In this document: piece by piece, positions 3,507 through 51,900 of the stretch
Layout of the letters: every line of letters begins with the position of its first letter
Position numbering within the stretch: position 1 is the first letter of the stretch
Assembly (NCBI GenBank): GCA_964560085.1
Contig: CAZLKF010000001.1
Location: 184,794-248,793 of the forward strand
Source: an uncultured Muribaculaceae bacterium
Lineage (GTDB): Bacteria > Bacillota_I > Bacilli_A > RF39 > UBA660
Reading direction: 5' to 3'
Length of the DNA: 64,000 nt
Made by a program: the position numbers and the translations under genes
The notes under the pieces: generated by a model
The model's input: the letters and a program-made list of their open reading frames with translations, nothing else
Told to the model about the DNA's origin: nothing
Database searches by the model: none

Positions 3507-4213
3507 CCTAAATCCCTCTTTTCAAAAGACTTTATTATTAAATATATTATAGATATATATATAATCAATAATAGCAATATAATTATAATTGGATTGGTAA
3601 ATGTCAAAGTATTTTCATAAAATGTCGACTTTATAATAATTTCTAAAATAATATAACAGAGTATATAAATTATCGTAGAATTTAATGCCTCATCGGTTTT
3701 AATGTAAAAAAGCAAATAAATATTTGGTATTAAAATAGTTAATAATATTTTATAGGCAATTGGTATCAACATCATATATTCAAAATTAATTTTTAAATTT
3801 TCATTGATGCATACAAAATAGCAAAATATGATATATATTAAAGATATTATTAATGCAAAAAACAAGTTGATTTTAATAATTTCCTTAATCCATTTATGTC
3901 GACCAATTCTGCAAAATGTTGAAGAAGGGTTCTTGATGAAAAAATGATCTATAAACTGAATTATCACATACGATAAAATTGCTAAATATGAGCATTCAAT
4001 CAATAAACAAAAAATAAATGAAGAATCAAAAAACGTCATTGGTAATAACATTGTGTAATATATGTATGTATAATCCGATATATCATGAACATCCATATAA
4101 GATGCTTTTAATCCACAAAGCGGTTTACAAATGAAATATATGATTATCAAAAATAGTATTTGCCACAATAGAAAGTATTTATTTAGGATAAATCTCTTTA
4201 AAATACGAATCAT
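3503..4213 (-). CDS. Polytopic membrane protein, putative ABC-2-type permease subunit
   Basis: About 6 predicted TM helices; 4-nt overlaps with both neighbours in the operon. Confidence 0.5.
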   Translation of the reverse strand: MIRILKRFILNKYFLLWQILFLIIIYFICKPLCGLKASYMDVHDISDYTYIYYTMLLPMTFFDSSFIFCLLIECSYLAILSYVIIQFIDHFFIKNPSSTFCRIGRHKWIKEIIKINLFFALIISLIYIIFCYFVCINENLKINFEYMMLIPIAYKILLTILIPNIYLLFYIKTDEALNSTIIYILCYIILEIIIKSTFYENTLTFTNPIIIILLLLIIYISIIYLIIKSFEKRDLG

Positions 4214-5127
4214 ATATTCTTTAAAACCGCTTTCTTATAACACGCTTTTGCTAAAAAGTAAAAAATCAAACAAACAAATATAGTTATGATTAAAGGAATA
4301 TATAAATTAAATTTTAGCAAGTTAAATGCTGCATATAAAAATAAAGAACCATAATAAATATAAGGAACTACGTTGAACGCAATATATGGTACTATTGATA
4401 TTGCTGCGAAGGTAAAAATAAATACTAAATATGTAAGTGGCTTGTTTTTTATAGTAGAAATAATAATTATTGACAAACATGAAATTGAAAAAGCATAAAT
4501 AAAAGCCATAACTAAATCCAAAAAAACCATTAAATAAGGATTAACATTATAACTAACGTATAAAAAATCTGGTGACAAATATAAAGCTTCACTAATAATG
4601 TGCTCACTACTTATACCATTTGGAAAAAACAAACTCAAAAGGAGAAAATAACATAATCTAGGAATGGTAAATAGCAAACCAGATATTATTCCATTTTTTA
4701 AAATTGTATTCCGAAAATATTTTTTTAAACCAATTCTTGTTATTTTGCATATAGAAAAATTATTATTTATTTCCGAATATAAATTTCTAGCAATGTAACA
4801 AAATATAACAATTGGAAAAGAAAAAATTAAAGTTTGACATAGAATTGTTCCATACGAAGCTACATACAAATAAAGAGACGACATTATATTTTGAATGCCA
4901 GGCTCAATATACAACATTATGTCATTATTAACTATTAAATCTGAAACATTACCTAATAGATATTCAGAAATATAATAACGCAAATAAGAAGGAAAATAGT
5001 TTACAACATGATAAAAGAATTCTGTCTTCATTAAAATAAATGATATAACAAATATAATTGCCGAAAATGATAAAATTTTAATAATTATCTTATTCTTTAA
5101 TTCATTTTTAATTTCTCTATTTAACAT
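4210..5127 (-). CDS. Polytopic membrane protein, putative ABC-2-type permease subunit
   Basis: Highly hydrophobic 305 aa with multiple TM helices; operon position between the membrane-anchored protein and the permease/ATPase. Confidence 0.5.
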   Translation of the reverse strand: MLNREIKNELKNKIIIKILSFSAIIFVISFILMKTEFFYHVVNYFPSYLRYYISEYLLGNVSDLIVNNDIMLYIEPGIQNIMSSLYLYVASYGTILCQTLIFSFPIVIFCYIARNLYSEINNNFSICKITRIGLKKYFRNTILKNGIISGLLFTIPRLCYFLLLSLFFPNGISSEHIISEALYLSPDFLYVSYNVNPYLMVFLDLVMAFIYAFSISCLSIIIISTIKNKPLTYLVFIFTFAAISIVPYIAFNVVPYIYYGSLFLYAAFNLLKFNLYIPLIITIFVCLIFYFLAKACYKKAVLKNI

Positions 5128-5150: not shown

Positions 5151-6059
5151 TTACATATATAACTTTGGATAATTACCTTTTTTTGTTTGCATCCACAAAT
5201 TATCTAAGTCAAGTTGATACCTATTGGTGTAATATTTAGAAACCGGATTAAATATTCGTTCTGCTTTTATTAATTTATAATCAATGTTTAATACTTCCGT
5301 ATCTATATTTTTTTTAAAAAGGAAAATATTTTTATCTATATCTATTTCCATATAAGTATCAATTAAATAGTGAGAAAAGTCTTCTAAAGTTTCTGCTATG
5401 ATATCAATTATGATATCTTCATTCTTTTTATAAAAACTATCATATGATTTGTTTATAGAATCAACCATTTCTTTATATGAGTAATCTTTAGTAAGCATTG
5501 AAAAAACTTTATCATAAAAATATTTTTTATTATCGGTATATCCTTGGGTTTTTAAATAATCAACATATAACTTATTAAATGTTTCTCTATTGATTATTTT
5601 TTTAGACACTTTATATATATATGCATCATTATCTTTAATAAAGTATTTCCCATTTTGTTGTCTTACAAATACTTCTTCACTTAATTTGTAATTTATTACG
5701 TTAAAATAATCAATAAATTGCATAAATGATGAAAACGACTCAATTAATTTTGGCTTTTCAGAGACCTCAATCATGTAGTCTAAAATAGGAACTATATGAT
5801 AATTAGAAAAGTCATAAATCAAATCTCCTTTAGTTATTTTATAACCTTTACTAGTTGATAAAACTTTTCTAATACTAGCATATTGATTATCAAAGTTTTT
5901 ATAATATGTCAGCATTCTTACAACCATGCTCATACTATAATCATTGTATAAATCATATTCTTTATTTTCAGATCCTAAATAATCTTTTGTAAAAAAACAA
6001 GCAAGTAATATAGTTAAAATAGAAGTGATAAGTACAATAATCAATTTATTTTTTTTCAT
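5151..6059 (-). CDS. Membrane-anchored (N-terminal signal/TM, LLAC lipobox-like) extracytoplasmic protein of unknown function
   Basis: MKKNKLIIVLITSILTILLACFF N-terminus; the rest is hydrophilic and Tyr/Lys/Asp-rich; first gene of the ABC operon. Confidence 0.4.
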   Translation of the reverse strand: MKKNKLIIVLITSILTILLACFFTKDYLGSENKEYDLYNDYSMSMVVRMLTYYKNFDNQYASIRKVLSTSKGYKITKGDLIYDFSNYHIVPILDYMIEVSEKPKLIESFSSFMQFIDYFNVINYKLSEEVFVRQQNGKYFIKDNDAYIYKVSKKIINRETFNKLYVDYLKTQGYTDNKKYFYDKVFSMLTKDYSYKEMVDSINKSYDSFYKKNEDIIIDIIAETLEDFSHYLIDTYMEIDIDKNIFLFKKNIDTEVLNIDYKLIKAERIFNPVSKYYTNRYQLDLDNLWMQTKKGNYPKLYM

Positions 6060-11276: not shown

Positions 11277-13928
11277 TTAAATTGCTGAATATGTGATACG
11301 TGAAGAAATATCTTTACAACTTGCATAATTGGAAGTTCCACAAGAAGTTGTATACCAAGTTGAATCACTAGTATTCCAAGAACTACATCCGCAATGTGAA
11401 CAACTTGTACTATAAACGGATAAAGCATAGCTATTATAGCATTCGGAATTGCAACTATTCCATGCAAATCCAAGATCATTACACTCAGCATATAATTCGC
11501 CATATCCTCTTCTTCCAATATAGCAACCTTTAGATTGACATAATGTTCCCGAATTACAATAAGTACAAGCATTACATTGATTACATGTATAATGTTGATA
11601 CTCATTTCTGCTCACAATTTTTACCGAGCAACTATTAGTTTTTCCTTCAGCATCTTTTATATAAGCATTGTAGGTCCCAGCTGTAGAAATAGCTTTTGTA
11701 TTAGATGACGAATAGTTAATACCATCCCATGAATATGTAATACCACTTGTCTGCGATGGTGTAATTGTTAATGTTTTACTTGTTGTATAACCACTTGTAG
11801 TTGTTATGTTGCAAGTTGTAGTGGAAAATTGGGAAGCTGCACAAGAGGAAGATATTACGTAAGGTGAAGTACTTGTTCCATTGCCTGTAAATGCAGTTGT
11901 TCCTTTTAAATACACAGTGGGTCTTATACCACGTGCCTCTGTTGCCGTATTCAAACTAACAGATCCTGTTGTATTTTGATATCTAACACGTGTCGCTGAA
12001 TATGGATTTATAACCCAATATACACTAGATGAAATATACATCCAATTATTTGTCTTACAAGCGTATGGGGAATTATTAAAGACATTCCATGTTGATGAGT
12101 CATTACAACTTGTACTTGCTCTTAAATAATCAGTTACTGAAGGTAAAGCAACATTTTTACTAACTAATCTGCTTTTTTCATTATCAATAGTTGTTGATAT
12201 TGTAACTCCACTACTTGATGCGCCATAAGGAACTGTTCCCGCATCAAAACTATGTGTAACTAATTGACTTCGCGCAAGTTCTGTCATGGAACTATAGAAA
12301 GTTGTATCTAAAACCGTATTGATTTTCATTGAACTATAAGTTTCAAGATTACTACCACTCGTATGATATACATCATTTGAATAAATTCCATTATAAATTA
12401 TTTTATATGCACCATCAGGTTCAATCGAAATTATGCGCCATATTTGGCCATTATAACTAACATAATTGTTAGGATTAGCCCCTTTAAAATAATATCTGCC
12501 AATTGTTTTCGCATCAACATATAATCCATCACCACTTGTTACTATTGCCTGATCACCTAGTATTTTACTATATATGTTAAATGTTATTGTTTTACTAGTT
12601 GCGACATTTCCGACATTATCTGAAACATTGTAAGTAATTGTATAAGTACCAACACCATAATTTGCTAAATTTGTAATAGCAGTTGTACCATTTTTTATAG
12701 CTAATGTTCCATAATTAACTCCACTATAAGAATCACTTATATTGACATAATTTGATAAAGGAATAGTTGAACCTTTAGTTAAACATACCGAAGTGGTTGT
12801 CGGATTTATTACGGGCACTTCATTATCAAATCTAAATACCCCTGAACAAGAATCACTTTGATTACCAATTTTATCAGTTGCGTATATACATAAATACCAA
12901 TCACCATTGCCACTAGCTTTTGAAATAGTGTTTCCCGAGGTAAAATTAGTCCCACTTGCTGCACTCGTTCCAGATGTTTGGGTCCATAAATATTTTGTTG
13001 TAGCAACTCCTGTTAAATTATCAGATACAGTTACAATAGTAGATTGTGATTTACCATATGCATTATTGCCATTCGTATTTATAGTTATTGTTGGTGACTC
13101 GGAATCAACAGTTATTGATGAACTACTAGTAACAGCATTTCCATTACCTGCGGTATCAATAATAGATCCTGCTTTAAGCACTATCGAATTACTTCCATTT
13201 CCAAGATTACCAACTATAGTCAAAGTATATTTATAGCCATTTGTAATGGTTTCTTTTATTATATTGTTAATTGTAAACAAATTATTAGTTAAATTAAAAT
13301 CATTTGATGTCAAATCTTTGTTTTGAATATTAGAAGCATCTGTACATGTTAAACTAATGGTTGTCGTTGTTCCACTTTTAAGATATTGATTAGCAAAAGA
13401 ACTCCATATACAATTTGGAGGCGTAGAATCATAATTTAAAGAGAATGTTCCCACCAATATTTGTTTGCTATAGGGACTTGTCGCATTTAAATACAAATTT
13501 GATGTTACAGACCCTATACTATTTTTGGGTACAATAATTACATTAACAGTTGAAGTTGAATTAGTAGCAATGACACCATCTATAGTAGAAACATTTACAG
13601 AACCATTAAAGAATTGTAAATTTGTGTTAGTTAAACTCAAATTATATGAAGACGCGAAATTACTTGTATTTGTTATAACTATAGGAATTACTATCTGATT
13701 TTGAGCATTTGCTTGAAAACTATTAGTATTAACACTAGTAGTAAGCAAAAGATCTCTTGTTTTTAAAGAAATAACTTGAGTACTATTCATATTATAGTAA
13801 GCAGATATTTCTGACAAAGAAAAAAAACTGATAAATATAAATAGTAAGAGTCTTAAAAAAAATTTTATATTATAAGAATTATTTTTTATCATATTATAAT
13901 TATTGCCAATAATTGTTTGTTTAAACAA
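11277..13928 (-). CDS. Large secreted Ser/Thr/Asn-rich protein with Ig-like repeats and a Cys-rich C-terminal module
   Basis: Signal-peptide-like LRLLLFIFISFFSLSEISA, multiple beta-rich repeats, about 20 Cys in the last ~120 aa (YTCNQCNACTYCNSGTLCQSKGCY...CSHCGCSSW). No LPXTG motif or C-terminal TM. The start may be an internal Met. Confidence 0.6.
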   Translation of the reverse strand: MFKQTIIGNNYNMIKNNSYNIKFFLRLLLFIFISFFSLSEISAYYNMNSTQVISLKTRDLLLTTSVNTNSFQANAQNQIVIPIVITNTSNFASSYNLSLTNTNLQFFNGSVNVSTIDGVIATNSTSTVNVIIVPKNSIGSVTSNLYLNATSPYSKQILVGTFSLNYDSTPPNCIWSSFANQYLKSGTTTTISLTCTDASNIQNKDLTSNDFNLTNNLFTINNIIKETITNGYKYTLTIVGNLGNGSNSIVLKAGSIIDTAGNGNAVTSSSSITVDSESPTITINTNGNNAYGKSQSTIVTVSDNLTGVATTKYLWTQTSGTSAASGTNFTSGNTISKASGNGDWYLCIYATDKIGNQSDSCSGVFRFDNEVPVINPTTTSVCLTKGSTIPLSNYVNISDSYSGVNYGTLAIKNGTTAITNLANYGVGTYTITYNVSDNVGNVATSKTITFNIYSKILGDQAIVTSGDGLYVDAKTIGRYYFKGANPNNYVSYNGQIWRIISIEPDGAYKIIYNGIYSNDVYHTSGSNLETYSSMKINTVLDTTFYSSMTELARSQLVTHSFDAGTVPYGASSSGVTISTTIDNEKSRLVSKNVALPSVTDYLRASTSCNDSSTWNVFNNSPYACKTNNWMYISSSVYWVINPYSATRVRYQNTTGSVSLNTATEARGIRPTVYLKGTTAFTGNGTSTSPYVISSSCAASQFSTTTCNITTTSGYTTSKTLTITPSQTSGITYSWDGINYSSSNTKAISTAGTYNAYIKDAEGKTNSCSVKIVSRNEYQHYTCNQCNACTYCNSGTLCQSKGCYIGRRGYGELYAECNDLGFAWNSCNSECYNSYALSVYSTSCSHCGCSSWNTSDSTWYTTSCGTSNYASCKDISSRITYSAI

Positions 13929-18939: not shown

Positions 18940-19491
18940 TTAAATGTCAACTGTTCTAATATCCGTCAAAATCCAATCATAATCAACAGCGTTATATGTT
19001 CTTCCACAATAAGCGCACTTGCCATCATAATTAGCATTAATATTGGCACCACATCCTGGACACTTTTTAGCGTCGTGTTCCTTCTTCACTACTCTTTTTT
19101 TAGTAAATGTCAAATAATTATTTTTCATAATTCGACTTTCATCTTGACCAGCAACTATTTTTCCTTCACTAGACATTATATAATCAATTGCTTTTGAAAC
19201 AATTATTACTCTTATAATAAATTGATCTTCAAGAATATTAATATCTTCTATTTCCGTCGAAGTCACATTTAGTTGCTCATACATCTGAATTTGGTTATTT
19301 TTGATCAAATTATCAACATAAGTAACATATTTGTTGTAAACTTCATCGCTTAAGAAATGACGAACTTTTAACATATCTTTCATCATTATGGAAGTCATCA
19401 ACATAACAAATACATTATCTACTTTGGTTTTAAACATACTTGTTGAAAATGTTTCATCTAGTTTTTGTAATTCTTCTACCATTATTCCCAA
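18940..19491 (-). CDS. Tim44-like domain protein with C-terminal zinc ribbon (cytoplasmic paralog)
   Basis: C-terminal CPGCGANINANYDGKCAYCG zinc ribbon; domain homologous to the C-terminal half of the adjacent 280-aa protein. Confidence 0.4.
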   Translation of the reverse strand: MGIMVEELQKLDETFSTSMFKTKVDNVFVMLMTSIMMKDMLKVRHFLSDEVYNKYVTYVDNLIKNNQIQMYEQLNVTSTEIEDINILEDQFIIRVIIVSKAIDYIMSSEGKIVAGQDESRIMKNNYLTFTKKRVVKKEHDAKKCPGCGANINANYDGKCAYCGRTYNAVDYDWILTDIRTVDI

Positions 19492-20324
19492 CCTTGACCT
19501 TTCTTTTCTTTCTTTGTCATTATTAAGTCATGATGTGAAGAAACTATTGTTGAATTGCAATAACTACAAATATTTGATGCTTGATTTGCAATTGGTGCTC
19601 CACAATTTGGACATTTACCATTATTTGCGTCTTTTGTCATTGTAAATGTTAACTCATAATGCATCAACATTCGACGTGCATCAGTACCTTTGATAACTTT
19701 ATTCTGAGCATCAATAACATAATCTTTTTGGGCAACAACTAATTCTAGTTTTATTGTCACCAAATCATTATCCGCATATATATCAGTTATTGCAATGTCT
19801 CTTTTAATAAAATCACTCATTACATTTTTTTGATTCTTCATCTTCAATGTTTCAAGTTGCATTTTATACATATTAAACATTTCATCAGATGTATATTTTT
19901 GCATAGTTTCATAATCGAAATTAGTCCAAGCAATTTGAATATTTTTATAGATTTCAAAAACTTGATCTTGTATTTCGACAGGTGTTAGATCAGTTAACTG
20001 CTTAATTTTAATTGAATCTTCATAATGATTTGTAATCGAAGATTTATGTGACGAACTTTGAACATTGTTTTTATTTTTAGAATAAATTATAGCTACTATA
20101 ATTATGATTACCACCAATAAAACAAATGAGCCTGGGGTTAATTCGCCACCTGATCCTGAATAATCACCACCAAAGTCAAAGTCAAAATCACCACCACTAT
20201 AACCGCCACCATAATCACTATCCCAGCCTGAATCAGCTTTAACACTTAAAGCTAAAATTGAAAAGCAAGTCATTACTGATAATACAAATAGCAAAATTGT
20301 TGAATACTTATGATTTTTTTTCAT
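19482..20324 (-). CDS. Membrane-anchored Tim44-like domain protein with Gly/Asp-rich ectodomain and C-terminal zinc ribbon
   Basis: Signal/TM, then GWDSDYGGGYSGGDFDFDFGGDYSGSGG, TM VLLVVIIIIVAIIY, Tim44-like domain, then CPNCGAPIANQASNICSYC. Confidence 0.4.
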   Translation of the reverse strand: MKKNHKYSTILLFVLSVMTCFSILALSVKADSGWDSDYGGGYSGGDFDFDFGGDYSGSGGELTPGSFVLLVVIIIIVAIIYSKNKNNVQSSSHKSSITNHYEDSIKIKQLTDLTPVEIQDQVFEIYKNIQIAWTNFDYETMQKYTSDEMFNMYKMQLETLKMKNQKNVMSDFIKRDIAITDIYADNDLVTIKLELVVAQKDYVIDAQNKVIKGTDARRMLMHYELTFTMTKDANNGKCPNCGAPIANQASNICSYCNSTIVSSHHDLIMTKKEKKGQGWE

Positions 20325-21906
20325 TACTTCTTATCCCCAATCCATTAATATATTTCCTCTTTACAATGATGTAAATACAAAATCCGGCAATCAAGAAATT
20401 TTCTATTCCTAAAATAATTGACCAAATATTAATCTCATTTTTTATACTTGTTCGTGAAATAAAATAATTATTATTTTGATAAGCAATTTCAATATAACCA
20501 TCATTTACTTCTATATTATCATCTTGAAGTTTAATTTTCAAATCATAATAATAAAGTTTTGTTTTTAAAACATCCTGACCAACAAATATTTTTAATTTCG
20601 TTTTTGTTTTATTAGGATTATCATTTGAGAAATAAAATGCTTCTGCATAATTAGTGGCTTTTTCTATTTCATTTTGGTATATATTATTAAAATTCAAAGT
20701 TGTGATAAATTCTTCATCTGTTAAAATATCTGAATTTAATATATGCCAAGCATATACTAATTTATCATTTTCATAATACGAAAATATAACATTCTTATTA
20801 GAATTTTTTATCATTTCTAATTGTTCTTTAGTTATTACTTGATCTTTTAAAACCATTACTTCAATTGTTTCTTTTGTAGTCGTAGAACTAATAGAAGCAA
20901 ACTTATCAATCGTTATCTGTGGATTATCATCAGTTCTCTTTACCTTCAAAACATATTTGTTAATTGATCCATCCTCTGCTTCAACGGTAATTGTAATTTC
21001 ATTCATTCCAACTACTAAATCAGTATTACTTATCTCAACTTTTGACTTTGTATCATTAGCAATTGCTGTAACGTTTAATTTTGATATCTCGTTGTTAACT
21101 GATAAAGAATATTCGTTAACATTACTTACAAAATCTAATTCATAACCATCAATCGTCAAAGATTTTAAAGTATTATTATTTGATTGAGCAAAACTTAAAC
21201 CATTCTTATCTAAGCGAATGACATTCAAAGTATATGTTTTAGTTGAACCATTTTCAGCTGTAACAATAATCTTAAATGAATTATTGTAAATATTTAACTT
21301 CTTTGTACCTGTTCCTTTAACTGTTGCTAAGGCAGATGATGGTGAGGCAGTAATATTGATAGTTGAAACATCATTATTAACAGTAATTTTGTAATTTGTA
21401 GTTGAAGATTTAAAATTGGTAATTGTTTTACCATCAATTTTTAAGTCATCTAAATTATTATCAGTTGATTTCATTTTTATAGTTATTTTTGATGTCCCAC
21501 CACTTACAGTTTTCATATTGCTAGTTCCTGTGACATTTGTAATAGAAACTATGGTTGATTCCCCTATTTTAAAATTTGCTTTAGCTTTAAATTTTAAGGT
21601 TGCATAGGTAAATGTTCCACTTTTACCATCAGTTGAATCTACAACAATGTTTGTTCCAACTGTCAGATTAAAACCATTACTTCCGTTTGAAGACACTAGT
21701 TCCAATTTATCTTTATCATAATTTAGAGTCGCTTTCAAACCAATTAAATTACTTGCCGACGTTGCTTTAAAAGTTAAAGTAATAGTTCCTCCACTTGCAA
21801 TGCCTGTACTTCCACTGATAGATGTTGTAAAATCTGCTGCCATAATTTCGGGAATATTAAAATTAATAATAACAAGTAAAAAAATTATTTTTAAAAATCT
21901 TTTCAA
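20308..21906 (-). CDS. Membrane-anchored cohesin-like + cadherin-like repeat protein (mini-scaffoldin/anchor)
   Basis: Signal peptide; N-terminal ~135 aa with a cohesin-like pattern (GGTITLTFKATSAS...LNYDKDKLELVS...GTFTYATLKFKAK); three cadherin-like beta-sandwich repeats (LKSLTIDGYELDFVSNVNEYSLSV...); C-terminal TM IILGIENFLIAGFCIYIIV followed by KRK. Confidence 0.55.
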   Translation of the reverse strand: MKRFLKIIFLLVIINFNIPEIMAADFTTSISGSTGIASGGTITLTFKATSASNLIGLKATLNYDKDKLELVSSNGSNGFNLTVGTNIVVDSTDGKSGTFTYATLKFKAKANFKIGESTIVSITNVTGTSNMKTVSGGTSKITIKMKSTDNNLDDLKIDGKTITNFKSSTTNYKITVNNDVSTINITASPSSALATVKGTGTKKLNIYNNSFKIIVTAENGSTKTYTLNVIRLDKNGLSFAQSNNNTLKSLTIDGYELDFVSNVNEYSLSVNNEISKLNVTAIANDTKSKVEISNTDLVVGMNEITITVEAEDGSINKYVLKVKRTDDNPQITIDKFASISSTTTKETIEVMVLKDQVITKEQLEMIKNSNKNVIFSYYENDKLVYAWHILNSDILTDEEFITTLNFNNIYQNEIEKATNYAEAFYFSNDNPNKTKTKLKIFVGQDVLKTKLYYYDLKIKLQDDNIEVNDGYIEIAYQNNNYFISRTSIKNEINIWSIILGIENFLIAGFCIYIIVKRKYINGLGIRSNEKKS

Positions 21907-24900
21907 TTTAATTCCTCCAATCCAGCCAAAAATCTTCTTAAAATGACCAAATCCGTTATATCAACTTCTTTATCTTTATTTAAGTCAGCTGCAAGTAAAT
22001 TTTGATCATTCAATATTTCTATTCCTGCTAAATGTCTTCTCAAAATAACTAAATCTGTTATATCAACTTCCTCGTCAGCATTAACATCTGCTAGTTTAAT
22101 ACTACTCCATTTTGCATAAAGCGTAATGTTGTTTGTTGGTATATACTGAATATCTTTTCCAACAAAATTTGTCAAATCCGCATCACTATACCAACCTATA
22201 AAATTTTTAGTTGAATCAAATGAACTAATGTCTGGTAAAGTAAGTGACGTCATCTGCCAGGTAGCTGTTAATTTACTGTTTTTAAAGCCAAAAGTATAAT
22301 TTGAATCCGCTAATGAACCAGATCCTGTTAAAATCCATTTTAAGAAAGTATGTTGAATAGGTGTTTTCATATTTTCTTTGTTTAAAACATTATAAACAAA
22401 TTCAACTTCAGTTGCATATACTGGATTGGCAATTGCAACAACCTCCAAAGAATTTTTTGTATATTTAAATTCATTTAAATCATTATATGTTCCTTTATTA
22501 GGATCGATTTCTAAATCAAAATAAACGGAATCATCAATAACATAAACCAATACTCCTGCAGCATAACGTTCTCTTAAGGCAGTAACAACAATTCTAGCAA
22601 CTCCATTACCAATGCCAGTAATTACTCCATTATCAACAGTGGCAACAGAAGAATCACTACTGCTCCACGTATATTTTGGAACTCGCATGAAATTTTTTAA
22701 AGTTGGTGTTATAGCAACTGTATTTTCCCCATTTTTATATAAAGTTACTTGAGATTTATCAAGTGTTAAGCCTGCATTTGTATCTTTAATAACCAAATCA
22801 ATTTGATCGCGACAATTATCGACTTCAATTGTAATTGTTACATTCCCCGCTTTTAAAGCTTTAACTACTCCATTTTGATCAACTGTTGCAATACTTGGAT
22901 TACTACTTGACCAAGATAAGTTACTAATTGCTGATCCTACTGGTGATACTTCAAAATTCAATTGCAGTTCATTAAAGACATTTCGATATATTGTTTGAGT
23001 TTCCTCTATAATATCGACCAGTCCGACTGTCACAATTGGTCCAACAATAATGGGGATACTCCGTTCAATAACATCATTTACAATCATTGTTATTGTTGCA
23101 TTGCCAATATGTACTGCTTCAATTAAACCTGTGTTAGAAACTGTTGCAATACTTGAATTACTACTTTTAAATTCTAATGACGTAATTGTTAATTTAGAAT
23201 CAATTACATAAGACAACTGATAACTAGGAAGTTCATTTATATCAAGTTCTACCAATTCACCATCTAATTCAACTTCAAAAAAGTTTTCATTAAATGTTAA
23301 GAAATAATTCTCTTTTTGAAAAGTGCTAGGAAATTTTATTATGCTATTAGAAGTCCCATTGATTACATAATTGTCAACCATTAAACTACGTTCACCATAT
23401 TTGTTAAAAAGATAAAGAGGAAGTTTTGTTCCTGAACTAATATTACGATATATAAATTGATGTTCGAAATTTGAACCCGTATACGTAAATTCACTTTCCT
23501 CTGTATAGATAGTCTCACTATTATTAGTCGTAAAGGCATTTAGTTCAGTACCAATAATTCCATTCAAACTTACTACTTTAATGGAAAACTCTGAATCATT
23601 TAATTCAATATCATCAATATCAACTGTTGCTAAACCAGGATAATTTGTTGTAACTGTTTTTATTAATTGATACCCACTAGTTGATGAATTTTTAACATAA
23701 ACCTCATATTTGCCATTAATTGATTCATGTGTAAAATTAACTCGTACCATTTTTTCAGAAAAATCTTTTGCTTTATCATAAGTTACTTCTATGGAATTTC
23801 GATTAGTAACAATACTTCCACTTTTTGTATAATCATAAATATTGTCCCAATTACGATACTTGACTTCTGTCACACCATTTACATCATAATATAATGACGA
23901 ATAAGCAAGATAAGTATAAGGGACGTAAGAACCCCAAGAATTTTTTAATATCCAAGCCCCAACACCAGCATAATCATCATTCCAACCAATAATAGACATT
24001 GCATGATAATTATACCCTTTATTACAATCCTCAGTTTCGTTTATCATATTGAGTTCATAATTATAACAAGTTCCCGCTTGATCGACAGCTGGTGACAATG
24101 CTGAAACATAAAGTGAACCATAATTCTTTATATGATCTTTTAACACTGCTCGATATTGTTCTTGCGTTATATTATCTTCATAATTTGCACTACCATAAAT
24201 ATTATAACCAGTTACTTGATATGCGACATTTTCAGAGTTTATAACTTCACTAAGATTTCGTTGATTTGATGAAGTGTCATAGTTACCCCAAATGTTTTCT
24301 TCAATTGGAGCCACCCCACTATTCAAATAAGTGGAAGCCAAGTTAAAATTACCACCACTCCCTAGCTCATGATTAGTTATCGAGTACGGGTTTTTTACTT
24401 CTTTGATTGAATTATCCGAAATCAAATAATCAATCTGACGCTCTGCAAAGTTAACTTGGGTGGTTTCCAACTGAGATACTAAAATGTTTGTTTCAATTGA
24501 TGAATAAGTAGCAAAAGCCCAACAAAGACCAAGTGTTGATTGGTTTTTAATTTTTGTGACATAATTGTCATCAGCCAAATTGTAGTAAGATGATGTAGAA
24601 GTAGAAATGTTATTGTCATATGTATAGTCCCACGTATAAGTTTCTGGTATAACTTCAACTCTTTTTTGATCAGCCGGTGACATTGCTAAATAATCAACAT
24701 ATTTAGGGTTTAAATATAATTGACCATTTTTCTTATTTTTTTCAGTTAAAACTTTTTTCCCGGATTCAGCTTGCTTTAAAACATATTCCTTAGCTGAGTC
24801 TGGAAGATAACTATAAGCTTCATTTTTTAAATCAATAGTTACTTTATATTCTAAGTCATTCCAACAAAAAGAAATTATTCCTAGAATAATTGTCAAAAGT

Positions 24901-24929
24901 GGCAAAAAAATCAAAACTTTCTTCTTCAT
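21903..24929 (-). CDS. Secreted C1 (papain-family) cysteine peptidase with Big_2 repeats and C-terminal type-I dockerin
   Basis: Signal peptide; catalytic Cys motif NQSTLGLCWAFAT and His region HAMSIIGWND...NSWG; several Big_2 Ig-like domains; C-terminal duplicated Ca-binding segments DVNADEEVDITDLVILRRHLAG / ADLNKDKEVDITDLVILRRFLAG. Confidence 0.7.
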   Translation of the reverse strand: MKKKVLIFLPLLTIILGIISFCWNDLEYKVTIDLKNEAYSYLPDSAKEYVLKQAESGKKVLTEKNKKNGQLYLNPKYVDYLAMSPADQKRVEVIPETYTWDYTYDNNISTSTSSYYNLADDNYVTKIKNQSTLGLCWAFATYSSIETNILVSQLETTQVNFAERQIDYLISDNSIKEVKNPYSITNHELGSGGNFNLASTYLNSGVAPIEENIWGNYDTSSNQRNLSEVINSENVAYQVTGYNIYGSANYEDNITQEQYRAVLKDHIKNYGSLYVSALSPAVDQAGTCYNYELNMINETEDCNKGYNYHAMSIIGWNDDYAGVGAWILKNSWGSYVPYTYLAYSSLYYDVNGVTEVKYRNWDNIYDYTKSGSIVTNRNSIEVTYDKAKDFSEKMVRVNFTHESINGKYEVYVKNSSTSGYQLIKTVTTNYPGLATVDIDDIELNDSEFSIKVVSLNGIIGTELNAFTTNNSETIYTEESEFTYTGSNFEHQFIYRNISSGTKLPLYLFNKYGERSLMVDNYVINGTSNSIIKFPSTFQKENYFLTFNENFFEVELDGELVELDINELPSYQLSYVIDSKLTITSLEFKSSNSSIATVSNTGLIEAVHIGNATITMIVNDVIERSIPIIVGPIVTVGLVDIIEETQTIYRNVFNELQLNFEVSPVGSAISNLSWSSSNPSIATVDQNGVVKALKAGNVTITIEVDNCRDQIDLVIKDTNAGLTLDKSQVTLYKNGENTVAITPTLKNFMRVPKYTWSSSDSSVATVDNGVITGIGNGVARIVVTALRERYAAGVLVYVIDDSVYFDLEIDPNKGTYNDLNEFKYTKNSLEVVAIANPVYATEVEFVYNVLNKENMKTPIQHTFLKWILTGSGSLADSNYTFGFKNSKLTATWQMTSLTLPDISSFDSTKNFIGWYSDADLTNFVGKDIQYIPTNNITLYAKWSSIKLADVNADEEVDITDLVILRRHLAGIEILNDQNLLAADLNKDKEVDITDLVILRRFLAGLEELN

Positions 24930-24971
24930 AAAGCCAACTCTATTCTAAAAAAATTATAGCATATTTTATGG

Positions 24972-25000
24972 AAATAAAAAAGACTTCCATTTGAAGTCTT
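24972..25000 (-). terminator. Rho-independent terminator
   Basis: AAGACTTC-CATTT-GAAGTCTT hairpin followed by a T-run on the minus strand. Confidence 0.45.
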
Positions 25001-41198: not shown

Positions 41199-42707
41199 TT
41201 AATTAATAGGTTCAGTACTAACCCAATAATATTCACCAGTAGTATTTTTAGCAAATGTATGTTTATACTTTTTTGCATAGTTTTTTACTGAATATACTTC
41301 CTTTATTTCGTCTTCGTTCACTTTTACAACATTGCCCGTCGTTTTATCCGTGACTAAACCTTTGTCAATACATTTTATATCACCGATTTTTTCAACAGAA
41401 TCTGAATATGCATAAATTGTTCCAATTATAGAGTCTTTTTGGCAATAATCATATTCATAGTCTTCATCTATTAAAGTGGTTAGTTTTGGTTGGTAGTTAT
41501 CATGAATTTTTACATATCCTATTGAATCTTCACTATATAAGTAAATGTAATTACCTTCTTCTATAGCAGATGTTATAGTTGGTGATGTATATTCACATAT
41601 CTCCGTTTTTTCTTGAACACCACCTACTACACCATCATATAAACCAAGGCCACTAAATCCCGAACCATAATTAAAATATCCTGTTATAACTGTTAATTCT
41701 TTCGGCATTTTTATTGATGATGTATTATAAATTTTAACTAATGTTTTTTTTAACTCTTCCAAAGTTATAGATGGTTTATCTTCACAAACATATTTAGAAT
41801 TGTTTAAAATAGTACTGTAATAAGAAATAAGCAATAAGTTTTCATATGACAAATCTTTATATGTTACTTTTTTTGATTGATAAGTTGTAAATGGTAAATT
41901 GTAATATGTTGATGAAATATAAGTCATTAACTTTTTGACTGTAGCATTTGTTAATGATAATTCCTTTATTGGCGCAACAACAATGATTGTCCTTGTTGCA
42001 GTTGCAACCTCAGTTGCACTATTAGTAACTGAATAAGTCAATGTATATTTGCCGGCAACATTGCTATTTACCTTACCAGTTATTACTACATTTGATGATA
42101 AGTCTCCTTCTTTTGTATCTTTAGCAATATATCCTGGTTCAACATACGTTTCATCTTTATTAATGACCGCAATTTCTTCACCTTTTAATTCTAATGTTAA
42201 TGTTGTTTCTTTTGATACAACAGTTACTTTTCTCGTCAATGATGAGGTTAAAGAATCACTGTCAGTGACACTATATAAAATAGTATAGAATCCTGCTTTT
42301 TCAGAATTAACCGTTCCTTCAATTACAACTTTTCCTGTAATATCACCATCTTTATCATCATTGGCTTGATATCCAGGGTCAACGTAAGCTTCCCCTTCAG
42401 TTAAAGTAATTGAATTTTCACCAATTAATACTAATGTTGGTGCCACTTTGGATACTGGTTGTTGTTCTTTCTTTGATGCTAAAATCAAATATGTAACTAC
42501 TCCAGCTAATATTAAAACTAATATTGCTAAGATTATAACTAATAAATTATTATTGTTTCGACGATTATTCTCTTCACTTTGAGGTTCAAAATGATCTTTT
42601 TGATTATTACTATAGTCTTCAATTTTTACTTCATTTGTTGAAACATTCGTTATATTTTCTTGTACCTTTTCATTTTTTTCAATATTTGTATTTTGTTTTT
42701 CTCCCAT
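41199..42707 (-). CDS. Type-II membrane-anchored surface protein, two DUF5011-type Ig-like domains + variable C-terminal domain (paralog A)
   Basis: Likely start MGEKQN at 42707 (RBS GGAG); Asn-rich cytoplasmic tail, TM LLVIILAILVLILAGVVTYLILA, two Ig-like modules (YVDPGY...DGD(I/L)...GTVNS..AG.Y.(I/L)(L/T)YSVT), then a divergent C-terminal domain. Confidence 0.6.
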   Translation of the reverse strand: MGEKQNTNIEKNEKVQENITNVSTNEVKIEDYSNNQKDHFEPQSEENNRRNNNNLLVIILAILVLILAGVVTYLILASKKEQQPVSKVAPTLVLIGENSITLTEGEAYVDPGYQANDDKDGDITGKVVIEGTVNSEKAGFYTILYSVTDSDSLTSSLTRKVTVVSKETTLTLELKGEEIAVINKDETYVEPGYIAKDTKEGDLSSNVVITGKVNSNVAGKYTLTYSVTNSATEVATATRTIIVVAPIKELSLTNATVKKLMTYISSTYYNLPFTTYQSKKVTYKDLSYENLLLISYYSTILNNSKYVCEDKPSITLEELKKTLVKIYNTSSIKMPKELTVITGYFNYGSGFSGLGLYDGVVGGVQEKTEICEYTSPTITSAIEEGNYIYLYSEDSIGYVKIHDNYQPKLTTLIDEDYEYDYCQKDSIIGTIYAYSDSVEKIGDIKCIDKGLVTDKTTGNVVKVNEDEIKEVYSVKNYAKKYKHTFAKNTTGEYYWVSTEPIN

Positions 42708-42740
42708 ATAAATCTCCAAATCTAATACAAAATTAAACTT
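41953..42740. repeat. Direct repeat copy 1 (~0.79 kb, ~98-99% identical to 43417..44204)
   Basis: Covers the 5' end plus RBS of paralog A; the offset to copy 2 is exactly 1464 bp; the identical antisense 79-aa ORFs 42049..42288 and 43513..43752 in the track are a by-product of the repeat. Confidence 0.85.
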
Positions 42741-42773
42741 CACATATTATATTACATTAAAGTTATGCAACTA

Positions 42774-50299: not shown

Positions 50300-50394
50300 A
50301 TTTTTTCTCCTTTCCACTACACACATCCAGGTGTTTCATTTTCTCTCTTAATTAAAGATTTACCGAAGTAAACCTTAAATCAAAACGCATCAAT

Positions 50395-50423
50395 AATATA
50401 ACATTTTTAGTATTCATTGTCAA
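50395..50423 (-). promoter_or_regulatory. sigma-A promoter of the rpsL-rpsG-fusA-tuf operon
   Basis: Minus strand reads TTGACA-17 nt-TATATT; about 95-nt leader to the rpsL start. Confidence 0.5.
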
Positions 50424-50449
50424 CTAATTTTTATGCTATTTTTAAATTA

Positions 50450-51898
50450 TTATTCCGAAACAATTTTCTTTTTACGTTTCTTCTTTTTAAGTAAAAATGC
50501 CAAAATCCCTATTAATAAAAATTGAACAATAACTAATATTTCTAATATAGTAACATAAAGACCATTTTCTTTTTTTTCTGAACTTGATTCTTCAATTGGT
50601 TGCTCTTTTTTATCATCATCTTGTTTTTCGTCTTTTAAAATTTTAATTCTATATTCTTTATTAGTTCCATCCTCAGCAGTTATAGAAATTGTAATTATAC
50701 TATCATTTTTTAGGTTTTCATTTCCCGTAATAATATAATTTGCTTTCTCGCTTTCTAAAGTAACATTAATATCAAGTTTTTCTTCTTCGTTAATTTTTAA
50801 AGAATAATCTAAAGTGTTATTATCGAATGTCAAATCATAATTACTAATTTTTAAATCTGTGATATTAGTATTATCACTTAATATTTCTTTGATTCCTGCC
50901 CTTGTAATATTTAAAGTATATGTATTAATAGTTTTATTTTCGGCAGATACTTTAATTAATATTTTATTCAAACCTTCTTTTAATGACACTTCTCTATTTC
51001 CATAGTTGGTTACATAACTAGAAGTAGTATCTGTTAATGTGGACGTTATAGTTACTTTTTCAACTTCATTTAAAACCGTTAAATTATAGTTGTTGACACT
51101 TGAACTAAAATTTATTATTCCCTCACTTAACGACAATGTTTTTAAAGTGTTTACTTTGCTGCGGTTATCTTCTCTCTTAATATTCAAAGTATAGATTTTT
51201 TTTACACCTGATGCGCCAGTAACATTTACTTTAAATACATTCATTCCATAAGCTAAAGTTTTATTTCCAACCGAACCACTAATTGTTGCATTTGCATCTG
51301 TTGCCGTTGCTTCAATCAAAACACTTGTTGTTGTGGCTGGGAATGTTGCATTATAGCTAGTTTTATCACCGGCAAATCCAGCTATTTCTTCACCATTTAA
51401 ACTTAATGATGAAAGTGTGTTGACACTTGATAAAATATTTAATGAAAGAGTTCCACCAGTAACACTGACAGAATCACCATTCTTGTCAGTTGCAACAGGT
51501 TTAGTAAGTGTAATATTTGTATTGCCAAAAGCAGCATTATTATTGACTTTAAAAACTAATTTAACGATATTTTTTGATGTATCACTAATTAATTCATCAT
51601 AATTTAAGTTACCATAACTGAATTTTTTTCCATTTGTCACAGTAGCAAATGTTGTATAAGAAGCTGATAAAAGTTTTGTTTGACTACTCAAAGTTAAAAC
51701 ATCTGCATCCCAGCTAACAATTCCGTCGACTCCAGAAATAGTCGCTTCTGAACTAGTACGATTTAAATTTATGTAGATAGTTACATCTTCACCACGAGCA
51801 GCTTTTGTTGATCCAGTAGGTTTTAATGACATAGCTTCGATGTTTTTTAAACCAAGTAGCATTAGAAAAATAAGAAAAATTATTTTTTTACATCTCAT
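50450..51898 (-). CDS. Membrane-anchored cohesin-like + cadherin-like repeat protein (second mini-scaffoldin/anchor)
   Basis: Signal peptide; N-terminal cohesin-like module (GEDVTIYINLNRTS...WDADVLTLSS...IVKLVFKVNNNAAFG); cadherin-like repeats (LSSLSLNGEEIAGFAGDKTSYNATF..); C-terminal TM followed by KKKKRKKK. Confidence 0.55.
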   Translation of the reverse strand: MRCKKIIFLIFLMLLGLKNIEAMSLKPTGSTKAARGEDVTIYINLNRTSSEATISGVDGIVSWDADVLTLSSQTKLLSASYTTFATVTNGKKFSYGNLNYDELISDTSKNIVKLVFKVNNNAAFGNTNITLTKPVATDKNGDSVSVTGGTLSLNILSSVNTLSSLSLNGEEIAGFAGDKTSYNATFPATTTSVLIEATATDANATISGSVGNKTLAYGMNVFKVNVTGASGVKKIYTLNIKREDNRSKVNTLKTLSLSEGIINFSSSVNNYNLTVLNEVEKVTITSTLTDTTSSYVTNYGNREVSLKEGLNKILIKVSAENKTINTYTLNITRAGIKEILSDNTNITDLKISNYDLTFDNNTLDYSLKINEEEKLDINVTLESEKANYIITGNENLKNDSIITISITAEDGTNKEYRIKILKDEKQDDDKKEQPIEESSSEKKENGLYVTILEILVIVQFLLIGILAFLLKKKKRKKKIVSE

Positions 51899-51900
51899 AA

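What the first reader, a model, noticed from the sequence alone, without database searches (positions are those of the whole stretch)
20308..24929. Cohesin-dockerin two-gene module I: dockerin-tagged C1 cysteine peptidase + membrane-anchored cohesin/cadherin-like mini-scaffoldin
The 1008-aa secreted protein has a papain-family catalytic domain (LGLCWAF ... HAMSIIGW), several Big_2 domains, and a C-terminal duplicated Ca-binding dockerin (DVNADEEVDITDLVILRRHLAG / ADLNKDKEVDITDLVILRRFLAG). The next gene downstream overlaps it by 4 nt. It encodes a signal peptide, a cohesin-like N-terminal beta-sandwich, three cadherin-like repeats and a C-terminal TM anchor with a KRK stop-transfer. Together these look like a minimal non-cellulolytic 'cellulosome-like' display system that would tether a protease to the cell surface. 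The same architecture recurs 26 kb away (50450..53892).
Basis: partly seen in the sequence, partly recalled or inferred. Interest (0 to 1): 0.75.

Follow-up and report, generated by a model that had tools for sequence, protein, structure and literature searches.

The report
Paired dockerin protease and cohesin anchor
Two overlapping genes in an uncultured low-GC gut bacterium encode a secreted papain-type protease with a dockerin tail and a membrane protein with a matching cohesin socket, most likely to hold the protease on the cell surface; the docking principle is known, but this conserved one-to-one gene cassette appears undescribed.

Summary
The ORFs 21903..24929(-) and 20308..21906(-) exist and overlap by 4 nt (TTGA), with a GGAGGA Shine-Dalgarno site before the TTG start.

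- **Cargo gene (1008 aa):** Peptidase_C1 with an intact Gln-Cys-His-Asn set, three Big_2 domains, and a two-repeat Dockerin_1.
- **Anchor gene (532 aa):** its N-terminal domain is a true cohesin. Scanned alone it scores 28.3 bits against Pfam Cohesin (cut-off 24.1). The family profile hits almost only PDB cohesins. The AF2 model (pLDDT 97) matches cohesin structures (TM up to 0.85).

Two details need correcting. The anchor has two cadherin-like repeats plus an unclassified juxtamembrane domain, not three repeats. The second module (50450..53892) carries a DUF285/LRR protein, not a peptidase.

The pairing is conserved. All 12 related loci from genome assemblies place a dockerin gene next to the cohesin-anchor gene. 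Cargos vary: S8 and C1 peptidases, Big_2 proteins, a glucosaminidase. Dockerin type tracks cohesin type.

Close precedents are R. bromii Sca2, the C. lentocellum ClcC/ClcD operon and TM-anchored single-cohesin scaffoldins. I rate it a new variant of a known kind, of moderate interest.

The parts
24980..25000 (-). Terminator-like hairpin plus T-run ending the upstream DUF975 gene. It marks the 5' boundary of the cassette's transcription unit.
   Evidence: 8-bp stem, 3 GC pairs, T-run; sequence.
24953..24958 (-). TATAAT -10-like hexamer about 24 nt upstream of the peptidase ATG. Candidate promoter of the cassette.
   Evidence: Read directly. Consensus match only, not evidence of function.
21903..24929 (-). 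Cargo gene: 1008-aa secreted C1 (papain-family) cysteine peptidase with a C-terminal dockerin.
   Evidence: ORF; Pfam. An identical protein is on record on a 260-kb contig (P0156).
23928..24572 (-). Peptidase_C1 catalytic domain (aa 120-334). The catalytic residues are Gln in IKNQ, Cys in LGLCWAF, His in HAMSIIGW and Asn in LKNSWG.
   Evidence: Pfam 40.0 bits against a 20.7 cut-off. Alignment to ananain 6y6l places all four catalytic residues.
22500..23252 (-). Big_2 / Ig-like spacer region, three Big_2 stretches. Coordinates are approximate (aa ~560-810).
   Evidence: Pfam Big_2 92.5 bits with 3 stretches, plus HL_N-beta and Big-like.
21909..22091 (-). Dockerin (aa 947-1007). The two near-identical 22-residue repeats are DVNADEEVDITDLVILRRHLAG and DLNKDKEVDITDLVILRRFLAG.
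   Evidence: Pfam Dockerin_1 41.4 bits against a 22.9 cut-off; regex scan; own HMM.
21903..21920 (-). Translational-coupling junction: a GGAGGA Shine-Dalgarno site inside the end of the peptidase ORF, then the TTG start overlapping the TGA stop (TTGA).
   Evidence: Sequence.
20308..21906 (-). Anchor gene: 532-aa protein built as signal peptide, cohesin, 2 cadherin-like repeats, juxtamembrane domain, TM helix and KRK tail.
   Evidence: It is the top representative (P0003) of a family of 209 clusters at 50% identity.
21466..21837 (-). Cohesin domain (aa 24-147).
   Evidence: Pfam Cohesin 28.3 bits against a 24.1 cut-off when isolated. Profile against the PDB. AF2 pLDDT 97.3. Foldseek top hits are cohesins 2jh2, 4dh2, 2w1n and 2vo8, the last with TM 0.85.
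20932..21450 (-). Two cadherin-like beta-sandwich repeats (aa ~153-325), presumed stalk.
   Evidence: Pfam PF12733 67 bits, 2 stretches.
20437..20931 (-). Conserved juxtamembrane alpha/beta domain (aa ~326-490) with no family assignment.
20311..20427 (-). C-terminal TM helix (IWSIILGIENFLIAGFCIYIIV) plus a basic tail (KRK...). There is no LPXTG motif.
   Evidence: Read from the translation; conserved across the family in alignment A4.
51901..53892 (-). Module II cargo gene: 663-aa DUF285/LRR (BspA-like) protein with a C-terminal dockerin of a different sequence type (aa 604-660, nt ~51904-52083).
   Evidence: Pfam DUF285 408.8 bits and Dockerin_1 26.7 bits.
50450..51898 (-). Module II anchor gene: 482 aa built as signal peptide, cohesin (aa ~19-160, nt ~51419-51844), 3 cadherin-like repeats, acidic linker, TM helix and KKKKRKKK tail.
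   Evidence: Pfam Cohesin 38.2 bits on the isolated domain; Cadherin-like 79 bits, 3 stretches. At the junction a GGAGG site lies 6 nt before the ATG and the intergenic gap is 2 nt.

Best explanation
This is a dedicated, operon-encoded cohesin-dockerin display cassette.

**Proposed mechanism**
1. The two genes are transcribed together from a promoter just after the upstream terminator. They are translationally coupled through a 4-nt overlap and an internal Shine-Dalgarno site. The units are therefore made in similar amounts.
2. Both products are exported by N-terminal signal sequences.
3. The 532-aa protein stays in the membrane through its C-terminal helix and basic tail. It projects its N-terminal cohesin outward on a stalk of two cadherin-like repeats and a juxtamembrane domain. 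The organism makes peptidoglycan, so the stalk probably spans or reaches through the wall.
4. The Ca-binding duplicated dockerin at the C-terminus of the peptidase plugs into that cohesin. An active papain-type cysteine peptidase is then held at the cell surface on an Ig-like (Big_2) arm.
5. A second cassette in the same genome uses a divergent cohesin/dockerin pair to display an LRR (DUF285/BspA-like) protein. This suggests each anchor is specific for its neighbour's dockerin.

**Shown:** domain identities, cohesin fold, intact catalytic and Ca-binding residues, gene coupling, conserved adjacency across species, and co-variation of dockerin type with cohesin type.

**Inferred:** the physical interaction and its specificity, the topology, the surface location and the substrate. 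The likely role is cell-proximal proteolysis of host or dietary protein for nutrient capture.
For: **Domain identity**
- Dockerin, C1 peptidase and Big_2 pass their Pfam cut-offs.
- The cohesin passes its cut-off when isolated, for both modules, and in 42 of 47 family members.
- The family profile hits almost only cohesins in the PDB (22 of 25): 3l8q at E 3e-5, 4uyp, 5nrk, and the NagJ cohesin 2jh2.
- The AF2 model has pLDDT 97.3. Foldseek matches cohesins at E down to 1.6e-8 and TM up to 0.85.
- The catalytic Gln, Cys, His and Asn are present.

**Gene coupling**
- TTGA overlap with a GGAGGA site.
- Module II has a 2-nt gap with a GGAGG site.
- A terminator and a TATAAT hexamer lie upstream.

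**Synteny**
- All 12 genome loci found with the cohesin alone have a dockerin-ending ORF next to the cohesin gene: 11 directly upstream and 1 directly downstream.
- The same holds in metagenome loci L019, L020, L022 and L023.
- Orthologous C1-dockerin genes at 49% and 41% identity sit at the same chromosomal position and are again followed, with a 4-nt overlap, by a cohesin anchor.

**Cargo is swapped while the pair is kept**
- Cargos include S8 peptidases, Big_2 proteins, a glucosaminidase, DUF4430 and an LRR protein.

**Co-variation**
- Dockerin similarity tracks cohesin similarity across 13 pairs (Mantel r 0.67, p 4e-4).
- Module-II-type cohesins elsewhere are preceded by module-II-type dockerins.

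**Precedent**
- The R. bromii Sca2 cohesin binds dockerins of a peptidase and an LRR protein (PMC4611034).
- An adjacent cohesin/dockerin gene pair forms a complex in C. lentocellum (PMC13487519).
Against: - No binding evidence of any kind exists.
- The Mantel correlation is confounded by shared ancestry of a cassette inherited as a unit.
- Two family members are orphans in the sequence available. L021 has no dockerin gene within 6 kb. L018 has none in the 249 nt upstream.
- In a distant C1-dockerin relative (L026), the overlapping downstream gene has no detectable cohesin.
- The peptidase N-terminus lacks a clear AXA cleavage site. It could be an uncleaved signal anchor, which would make docking less necessary.
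- The C-terminal 'helix + basic tail' could be a sorting signal for an unknown processing enzyme rather than a stable anchor.
- Only 64 kb of the genome was seen, so other cohesins or dockerins may exist and change the pairing picture.
Confidence: 0.72

Rival explanations
1. The cohesin anchor is a general docking site, or binds dockerins encoded elsewhere in the genome or in other species. Adjacency to the peptidase would then reflect co-regulation or shared ancestry rather than one-to-one specificity.
For: - The R. bromii Sca2 cohesin binds several unrelated dockerin proteins (PMC4611034).
- The first-cluster dockerins of several species are very alike (TDLVKLRRHLAG[IL]E), so cross-binding is plausible.
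- Orphan anchors exist (L021).
- L012 has two dockerin proteins upstream of one cohesin gene.
Against: - The two cassettes within this one genome have strongly divergent cohesins (about 25-30% identity) and dockerins (normalised alignment-score similarity 0.26).
- Each dockerin type recurs with its own cohesin type in other genomes.
- The window holds no other dockerin or cohesin.
Confidence: 0.15
2. The 532-aa protein is mainly an adhesin or wall-associated stalk protein. Its cadherin-like repeats would mediate adhesion, and its cohesin-fold domain would bind something other than a dockerin. The dockerin on the peptidase would serve only as a Ca-stabilised module or would bind a non-cohesin ligand.
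For: - Cohesin-like folds occur outside dockerin binding. Foldseek also returns the CLIPPER adhesin domain 9ifr and integrin/complement domains at lower rank.
- Non-canonical cohesin partners are reported for ClcC (PMC13487519).
Against: - Sequence-level homology is to bona fide cohesins that bind dockerins.
- Conserved adjacency to dockerin genes with interchangeable cargos is hard to explain without a cohesin-dockerin interaction.
Confidence: 0.07
3. The membrane protein acts as a regulator, chaperone or inhibitor of the protease. It would hold the protease inactive or assist its maturation at the membrane, rather than displaying it.
For: - Tight translational coupling is typical of enzyme/partner pairs.
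- No I29-type propeptide was detected on the peptidase, so another latency mechanism could be needed.
Against: - The same anchor family pairs with non-protease cargos: LRR, Big_2-only, glucosaminidase and DUF4430. The partner function is therefore generic, not protease-specific.
- The docking point is the C-terminal dockerin, far from the catalytic domain.
Confidence: 0.05

Closest known systems
Ruminococcus bromii Sca2 surface-anchoring scaffoldin and its dockerin proteins (amylosome; PMC4611034)
   Same: A single-cohesin, ~530-aa cell-surface protein anchors dockerin-bearing proteins. Its experimentally bound partners include a peptidase and an LRR protein, the same cargo classes as the two window modules. 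It is also a non-cellulolytic gut Firmicute.
   Different: - Sca2 is sortase-anchored (LPXTG-type). The window anchors end in a TM helix plus basic tail with no LPXTG.
- Sca2 is a shared hub for many unlinked dockerin genes, mainly amylases. Here each anchor is encoded with one cargo as an overlapping gene pair.
- The window anchors add cadherin-like repeats and a juxtamembrane domain.
- The lineage differs: Bacilli MAGs rather than Ruminococcaceae.
ClcC/ClcD minimal cohesin-dockerin operon of Cellulosilyticum lentocellum (PMC13487519, 2026)
   Same: A two-gene operon encodes one cohesin protein and one dockerin enzyme that form a 1:1 complex.
   Different: - There the cargo is a GH5 cellulase.
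- The scaffold carries CBM3 and is cell-free, so it targets the substrate rather than the cell.
- The genes are about 40 bp apart. Here they overlap by 4 nt.
- Here the cargo is a cysteine peptidase (or an LRR protein) and the scaffold is membrane anchored.
'Non-SLH anchoring' single-cohesin scaffoldins with a C-terminal TM helix, noted in Clostridia genomes (PMC11557425, 2024)
   Same: One cohesin plus a C-terminal transmembrane helix, in presumably non-cellulolytic organisms such as Lachnoclostridium sp. MSJ-17.
   Different: Those were catalogued without identified partners or a conserved gene pairing. The present family has a defined neighbour dockerin, cadherin-like repeats and a conserved juxtamembrane domain.
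Non-cellulosomal cohesins of Clostridium perfringens glycosidases (2jh2, 2w1n, 2vo8, 2ozn)
   Same: These are among the closest structural matches to the AF2 model (E 1.6e-8; TM up to 0.85) and are hit by the family profile. Here too the cohesin-dockerin pair is used outside cellulose degradation.
   Different: In C. perfringens the cohesins and dockerins sit on secreted glycoside hydrolases and assemble enzyme-enzyme complexes. They are not part of a membrane anchor encoded with its cargo.

Membership tests
Cohesin domain (Pfam PF00963) | Match to the family HMM above the curated gathering score | tested here: met
   The isolated N-terminal domains score 28.3 bits (module I) and 38.2 bits (module II) against a 24.1 cut-off. 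42 of 47 family members match. The match is lost when the full-length proteins are scanned.
Cohesin domain (Pfam PF00963) | Nine-stranded beta-sandwich (jelly-roll) fold like solved cohesins | tested here: met
   The AF2 model has pLDDT 97.3 and is all-beta. Nearly all of the top 46 Foldseek PDB hits are cohesins, with E down to 1.6e-8 and TM up to 0.85 against 2vo8. Strand-by-strand topology was not inspected.
Cohesin domain (Pfam PF00963) | Binds a dockerin in a Ca-dependent manner | not testable with these tools
Only indirect evidence is available: conserved adjacency and co-variation.
Dockerin type I (Pfam PF00404) | HMM match above the gathering score | tested here: met
   41.4 bits (module I) and 26.7 bits (module II) against a 22.9 cut-off.
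Dockerin type I (Pfam PF00404) | Two ~22-residue repeats, each an EF-hand-like Ca loop (D/N at positions 1, 3, 5, 9, 12) followed by a helix | tested here: met
   Read directly from the sequence: DVNADEEVDITD and DLNKDKEVDITD, each followed by LVILRR[HF]LAG. The near-identity of the two repeats is compatible with a dual binding mode, by analogy only.
Papain-family cysteine peptidase (C1, Pfam PF00112) | HMM match and the catalytic Gln-Cys-His-Asn residues | tested here: met
   40.0 bits against a 20.7 cut-off. The alignment to ananain 6y6l places Gln (KNQ), Cys (CWAF), His (HAM) and Asn (NSWG).
Papain-family cysteine peptidase (C1, Pfam PF00112) | I29-type inhibitory propeptide (typical of C1A zymogens, not required for family membership) | tested here: inconclusive
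   There is no Pfam propeptide hit at E <= 0.1. Residues ~25-119 before the catalytic domain are unassigned.
Cellulosome (multi-enzyme plant-cell-wall-degrading complex) | Scaffoldin with multiple cohesins, dockerin-bearing CAZymes and a CBM | tested here: not met
   There is one cohesin per anchor. The cargos are a peptidase and an LRR protein. No CBM or GH domain was found in the four proteins. Only the docking principle is shared.
Cadherin-like beta sandwich (Pfam PF12733) | HMM match; number of repeats | tested here: met
Module I anchor: 67 bits, 2 stretches. Module II anchor: 79 bits, 3 stretches.
Sortase-anchored scaffoldins (ScaE / Sca2 type) | C-terminal LPXTG-type motif before the hydrophobic helix | tested here: not met
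   Neither window anchor contains LPXTG (read). A distant relative, L009, does carry LPQTG.
Two-gene cohesin/dockerin operon (ClcC/ClcD type) | Adjacent, co-oriented genes for one cohesin protein and one dockerin protein, conserved across relatives | tested here: met
   The window has two such pairs. The arrangement holds in 12 of 12 genome loci and in L019, L020, L022, L023, L024 and L025.

The most novel reading that the evidence does not exclude
Uncultured gut Bacilli carry a large, unrecognised family of orthogonal 'plug-and-socket' cassettes. The family has at least 209 clusters at 50% identity and is annotated in databases only as 'cadherin-like'. Each cassette would pair one dockerin cargo (protease, LRR adhesin or wall hydrolase) with its own membrane-anchored cohesin.

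In many members the juxtamembrane ZU5/GAIN-like domain carries a conserved H-x-S/T motif just before the TM helix. This domain would be autoproteolytic, so the cohesin-cargo complex could be shed or mechanically released. That would make it a bacterial counterpart of the GAIN/GPS or FIIND mechanism.
Probability: 0.1. Interest if true: 0.8.

Novelty: new variant of a known kind. Interest (0 to 1): 0.45.

Why it matters
The role of cohesin-dockerin pairs outside cellulosomes has been discussed since they were first catalogued, but few systems give a clean, testable pair. These cassettes offer several advantages.

- **Defined pairs.** Each cassette gives a one-to-one cognate pair encoded side by side.
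- **A natural specificity control.** Two divergent pairs sit in the same genome.
- **Relevant cargos.** Cysteine and serine proteases, LRR proteins and a wall hydrolase all bear on host or dietary protein use and on adhesion by poorly known gut Bacilli.
- **Possible tools.** If the pairs are orthogonal, they are ready-made parts for surface display in Gram-positive hosts.
- **An annotation blind spot.** The cohesin is missed when the full-length protein is scanned against Pfam. The family is therefore recorded only as 'cadherin-like', and surveys based on whole-protein scans will undercount such systems.

Tried and rejected
- **Single-sequence phmmer of both N-terminal domains against PDB chains:** no cohesin hit. 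A profile was needed.
- **Full-length Pfam scans:** no cohesin hit. Isolating the domain recovered it.
- **Word-indexed homologue search with the N-terminal 189 aa:** only 2 fragments. The exhaustive representative search found the family.
- **The search for related loci with the 47-sequence alignment:** An 8-sequence alignment worked.
- **Metagenome scan:** only 4 further loci, mostly short.
- **First dockerin HMM built from 2 sequences:** missed the L009 dockerin. A 12-sequence HMM found it.
- **Wall-less, Mollicute-like host that would need a membrane anchor:** considered and rejected. The window encodes MurF and a PASTA-domain kinase.
- **Lipoprotein signal on the peptidase (ISFC):** considered and rejected because it is a poor lipobox. 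The cleavage site remains undetermined.
- **Species identity:** could not be established. The closest genome-collection relative of the anchor is 53% identical.

Full report
**1. The observation**

Both ORFs exist on the minus strand exactly as described: 21903..24929 (1008 aa, ATG start) and 20308..21906 (532 aa, TTG start).

The junction reads ...GGAGGAATTAAATTGAAA.... The TGA stop of the first gene shares TG with the TTG start of the second, giving a 4-nt overlap. A GGAGGA Shine-Dalgarno site lies about 7 nt upstream of the TTG.

Upstream of the first gene, the preceding DUF975 gene ends in a terminator-like hairpin at 25000-24980. A TATAAT hexamer follows. The 3' end of the second gene overlaps the next gene (Tim44-like) by 17 nt. 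The pair therefore starts a transcription unit and may be read through into downstream genes.

**2. Domain content**

Pfam assigns the 1008-aa protein as follows:
- Peptidase_C1, 40.0 bits against a 20.7 cut-off
- Big_2, 92.5 bits in three stretches
- a weak Flg_new repeat
- Dockerin_1, 41.4 bits against a 22.9 cut-off, aa 947-1001

Alignment with ananain (6y6l) places the oxyanion Gln and the catalytic Cys in VTKIKNQSTLGLCWAF. It places His and Asn in HAMSIIGW...WILKNSWG. The enzyme therefore looks catalytically competent.

The two dockerin repeats are DVNADEEVDITDLVILRRHLAG and DLNKDKEVDITDLVILRRFLAG. Both carry acidic or amide residues at loop positions 1, 3, 5, 9 and 12, and their helices are nearly identical.

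For the 532-aa protein, a full-length Pfam scan returns only Cadherin-like (67 bits, two stretches). That result would wrongly have refuted the finding. Scanned alone, the N-terminal domain (aa 24-147) matches Cohesin at 28.3 bits (cut-off 24.1, E 2.4e-6). The equivalent domain of the second module scores 38.2 bits.

Residues ~326-490 are not a third cadherin-like repeat. They have no Pfam match and fold as a separate alpha/beta domain. The C-terminus is a 22-residue hydrophobic helix followed by KRK, with no LPXTG.

**3. Is the cohesin real?**

An exhaustive profile search with three cohesin domains found 209 representative proteins at E <= 1e-3 and 68 at E <= 1e-10. Most are 300-700 aa. In most, the domain sits directly after a signal peptide and the protein ends in a hydrophobic helix plus basic tail.

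- Of 47 extracted domains, 42 hit Pfam Cohesin.
- A profile of these 47 retrieves cohesins almost exclusively from PDB sequences. Examples are A. cellulolyticus ScaB and ScaC, R. flavefaciens ScaC, and the non-cellulosomal C. perfringens NagJ cohesin. The best E-value is 3e-5.
- AF2 with this alignment gives pLDDT 97.3 and an all-beta model.
- Foldseek against the PDB returns cohesins for nearly all of the top 46 matches. These include 2jh2 at E 1.6e-8, OlpC cohesin 4dh2, 2w1n, and 2vo8 at TM 0.85.

I regard the cohesin assignment as established at the sequence-profile and fold levels.

**4. The second module**

The anchor 50450..51898(-) has the same plan: signal peptide, cohesin, three cadherin-like repeats, TM helix and a KKKKRKKK tail. 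Its partner 51901..53892(-) is a DUF285/LRR protein (408.8 bits) with a dockerin (26.7 bits), not a peptidase.

The two genes are 2 nt apart, and a GGAGG site lies inside the end of the dockerin ORF. The two anchors are about 30% identical overall. Their dockerins belong to clearly different sequence types.

With my own HMMs, no other dockerin or cohesin ORF occurs in the window.

**5. Conservation of the pairing**

I searched one genome per species using only the cohesin domain and obtained 12 loci. They come from MAGs labelled Bacilli, Tenericutes, Clostridia and Oscillospiraceae; three further MAGs are labelled Muribaculaceae, an assignment that fits poorly with the rest.

All 12 have an ORF ending in a dockerin next to the cohesin gene:
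- 10 lie directly upstream, either overlapping or within about 70 nt.
- L009 lies upstream with a 167-nt gap.
- L003 lies directly downstream.

The cargos differ:
- Peptidase_S8 (L002, L005)
- Big_2 proteins (L003, L004)
- a glucosaminidase (L006)
- DUF4430 (L010)
- an 11-repeat cadherin-like protein (L011)
- unassigned (L007, L008, L013)

Further metagenome loci add an S8-dockerin pair (L023) and a Big_2-dockerin pair (L022).

The peptidase has orthologues at 49% and 41% identity in other species. They lie in the same neighbourhood: permease, metallo-beta-lactamase, DUF975, then the cassette, then Tim44, RlmN and PP2C. Each is again followed, with a 4-nt overlap, by a cohesin anchor. About 95 of the 120 listed homologues combine Peptidase_C1 with Dockerin_1, so dockerin-tagged C1 peptidases are common in these lineages.

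There are exceptions:
- L021 is an orphan anchor.
- L018 has no gene in the 249 nt available upstream.
- In the distant relative L026, the gene after a C1-dockerin protein has no detectable cohesin.

**6. Specificity**

Across 13 pairs, dockerin similarity correlates with cohesin similarity (Mantel r 0.67, p 4e-4). This is expected for a co-inherited unit and is not proof of co-evolution.

A second result is more telling. Cohesins of the module II type found elsewhere (L019, L020) are preceded by dockerins of the module II type, for example ...DVNGDENLDLSDVMKTAKHIYND...ADYDCNDNYNLQDIMKMAKAVYGGQ. Cargos, meanwhile, are exchanged within a dockerin/cohesin type. I infer cognate, possibly orthogonal, pairs. 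This remains untested.

**7. Host context**

The window has 28% G+C. It encodes MurF and a PASTA-domain Ser/Thr kinase, so the organism makes peptidoglycan. The stalk probably carries the cohesin through or beyond the wall.

Homologues carry source names such as 'Bacilli bacterium' and 'Candidatus Coprovivens', which NCBI places in Bacilli incertae sedis. The species itself was not found among the species-representative genomes; the closest anchor is 53% identical.

**8. Comparison with known systems**

- In R. bromii, the sortase-anchored single-cohesin protein Sca2 binds dockerins of a peptidase and an LRR protein as well as amylases (PMC4611034).
- A two-gene cohesin/dockerin operon forming a 1:1 complex was characterised in C. 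lentocellum (PMC13487519).
- Single-cohesin proteins with a C-terminal TM helix have been catalogued in Clostridia (PMC11557425).

Each element therefore has precedent. The new feature is the combination: a widespread, conserved, translationally coupled one-cargo/one-anchor cassette in uncultured Bacilli. It uses a TM anchor, a cadherin-like stalk, mostly protease or adhesin-like cargos, and at least two divergent pairs in one genome. My literature searches found no description of this family. The searched library is not exhaustive.

It is not a cellulosome. There is no multi-cohesin scaffoldin, no CAZyme cargo and no CBM.

**9. Side observation**

Of 77 family representatives, 23 carry H-x-[ST]-x-[YF]-x-hydrophobic-[ST] about 40-110 residues from the C-terminus, ahead of the TM helix. 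This formally resembles the autoproteolysis sites of those eukaryotic domains.

The window protein has lost the motif (QN-NNYFIS). I therefore record this as a lead only.

**10. Verdict**

Physical binding, specificity, topology and substrate remain inferred. I rate it a new variant of a known kind, of moderate interest.

Noticed in passing
[not shown]
   Followed up: partly
window 20362..20427 (-) and alignment A4: The C-terminal TM helix of the anchor family carries a conserved Glu or Gln about 5-8 residues into the helix (IILGIENF, IAIIEGAA, VVVEAIII, SIIELVFI; module II has TILEILVIV). An [IL]-N-[IV]-[WFY] motif sits at the helix start. This hints at an intramembrane partner, oligomerisation, or an unrecognised C-terminal sorting signal.
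   Followed up: no
window 20308..21906 (-) and 50450..51898 (-): Pfam Cohesin is not reported when the full-length proteins are scanned. It passes the gathering score when the domain is scanned alone. Precomputed annotations of these genes list only Cadherin-like, so whole-protein annotation hides the family.
   Followed up: yes
L004 195..2483 and L022 3713..6004: Two Big_2 cargo proteins end in a single dockerin repeat (DVNGDGKVNILDLVKLRRYLAGLEKLD) instead of the usual pair, yet they still sit directly upstream of a cohesin anchor. They appear to be naturally truncated dockerins.
   Followed up: no
L012 1434..8432; L011 3..9584; L016 699..1346: Some relatives are more elaborate. L012 (a Clostridia MAG) has two consecutive proteins carrying both a cohesin and a dockerin, followed by a small cohesin protein. 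L011 has a dockerin protein followed by two cohesin proteins. L016 has a 215-aa protein with cohesin plus dockerin. These look like adaptor-like chains.
   Followed up: no
window 18940..20324 (-): Two consecutive Tim44-like domain proteins with C-terminal zinc-ribbons follow the cassette. The first has a TM segment and overlaps the anchor gene by 17 nt. At least one Tim44-like gene follows the orthologous cassette in L025, but none follows it in L024.
   Followed up: no
window 50326..50450 (-): Module II lies immediately upstream of the rpsL-rpsG-fusA-tuf operon. A TTGACA-17-TATATT promoter-like site lies between the anchor's stop codon and rpsL.
   Followed up: no
window 11277..13928 (-); also 41199..42743 (-), 4210..5127 (-) and 5151..6059 (-): A large 883-aa ORF and three other ORFs have no NCBIfam match at E <= 1e-10. 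They were not examined further.
   Followed up: no
L026 4001..10731 (Candidatus Coprovivens MAG): A 1447-aa C1 peptidase with Flg_new repeats and a dockerin is followed, with a 1-nt overlap, by a 795-aa secreted protein. That protein has no Pfam hit and no match to the cohesin-family HMM. It may be a different or very divergent partner.
   Followed up: partly
whole window: The anchor's own sequence fits the peptide pattern used in the genome-collection scan. Even so, the best hit among 185,579 species representatives is only 53% identical. The source species appears to be absent from that collection.
   Followed up: no
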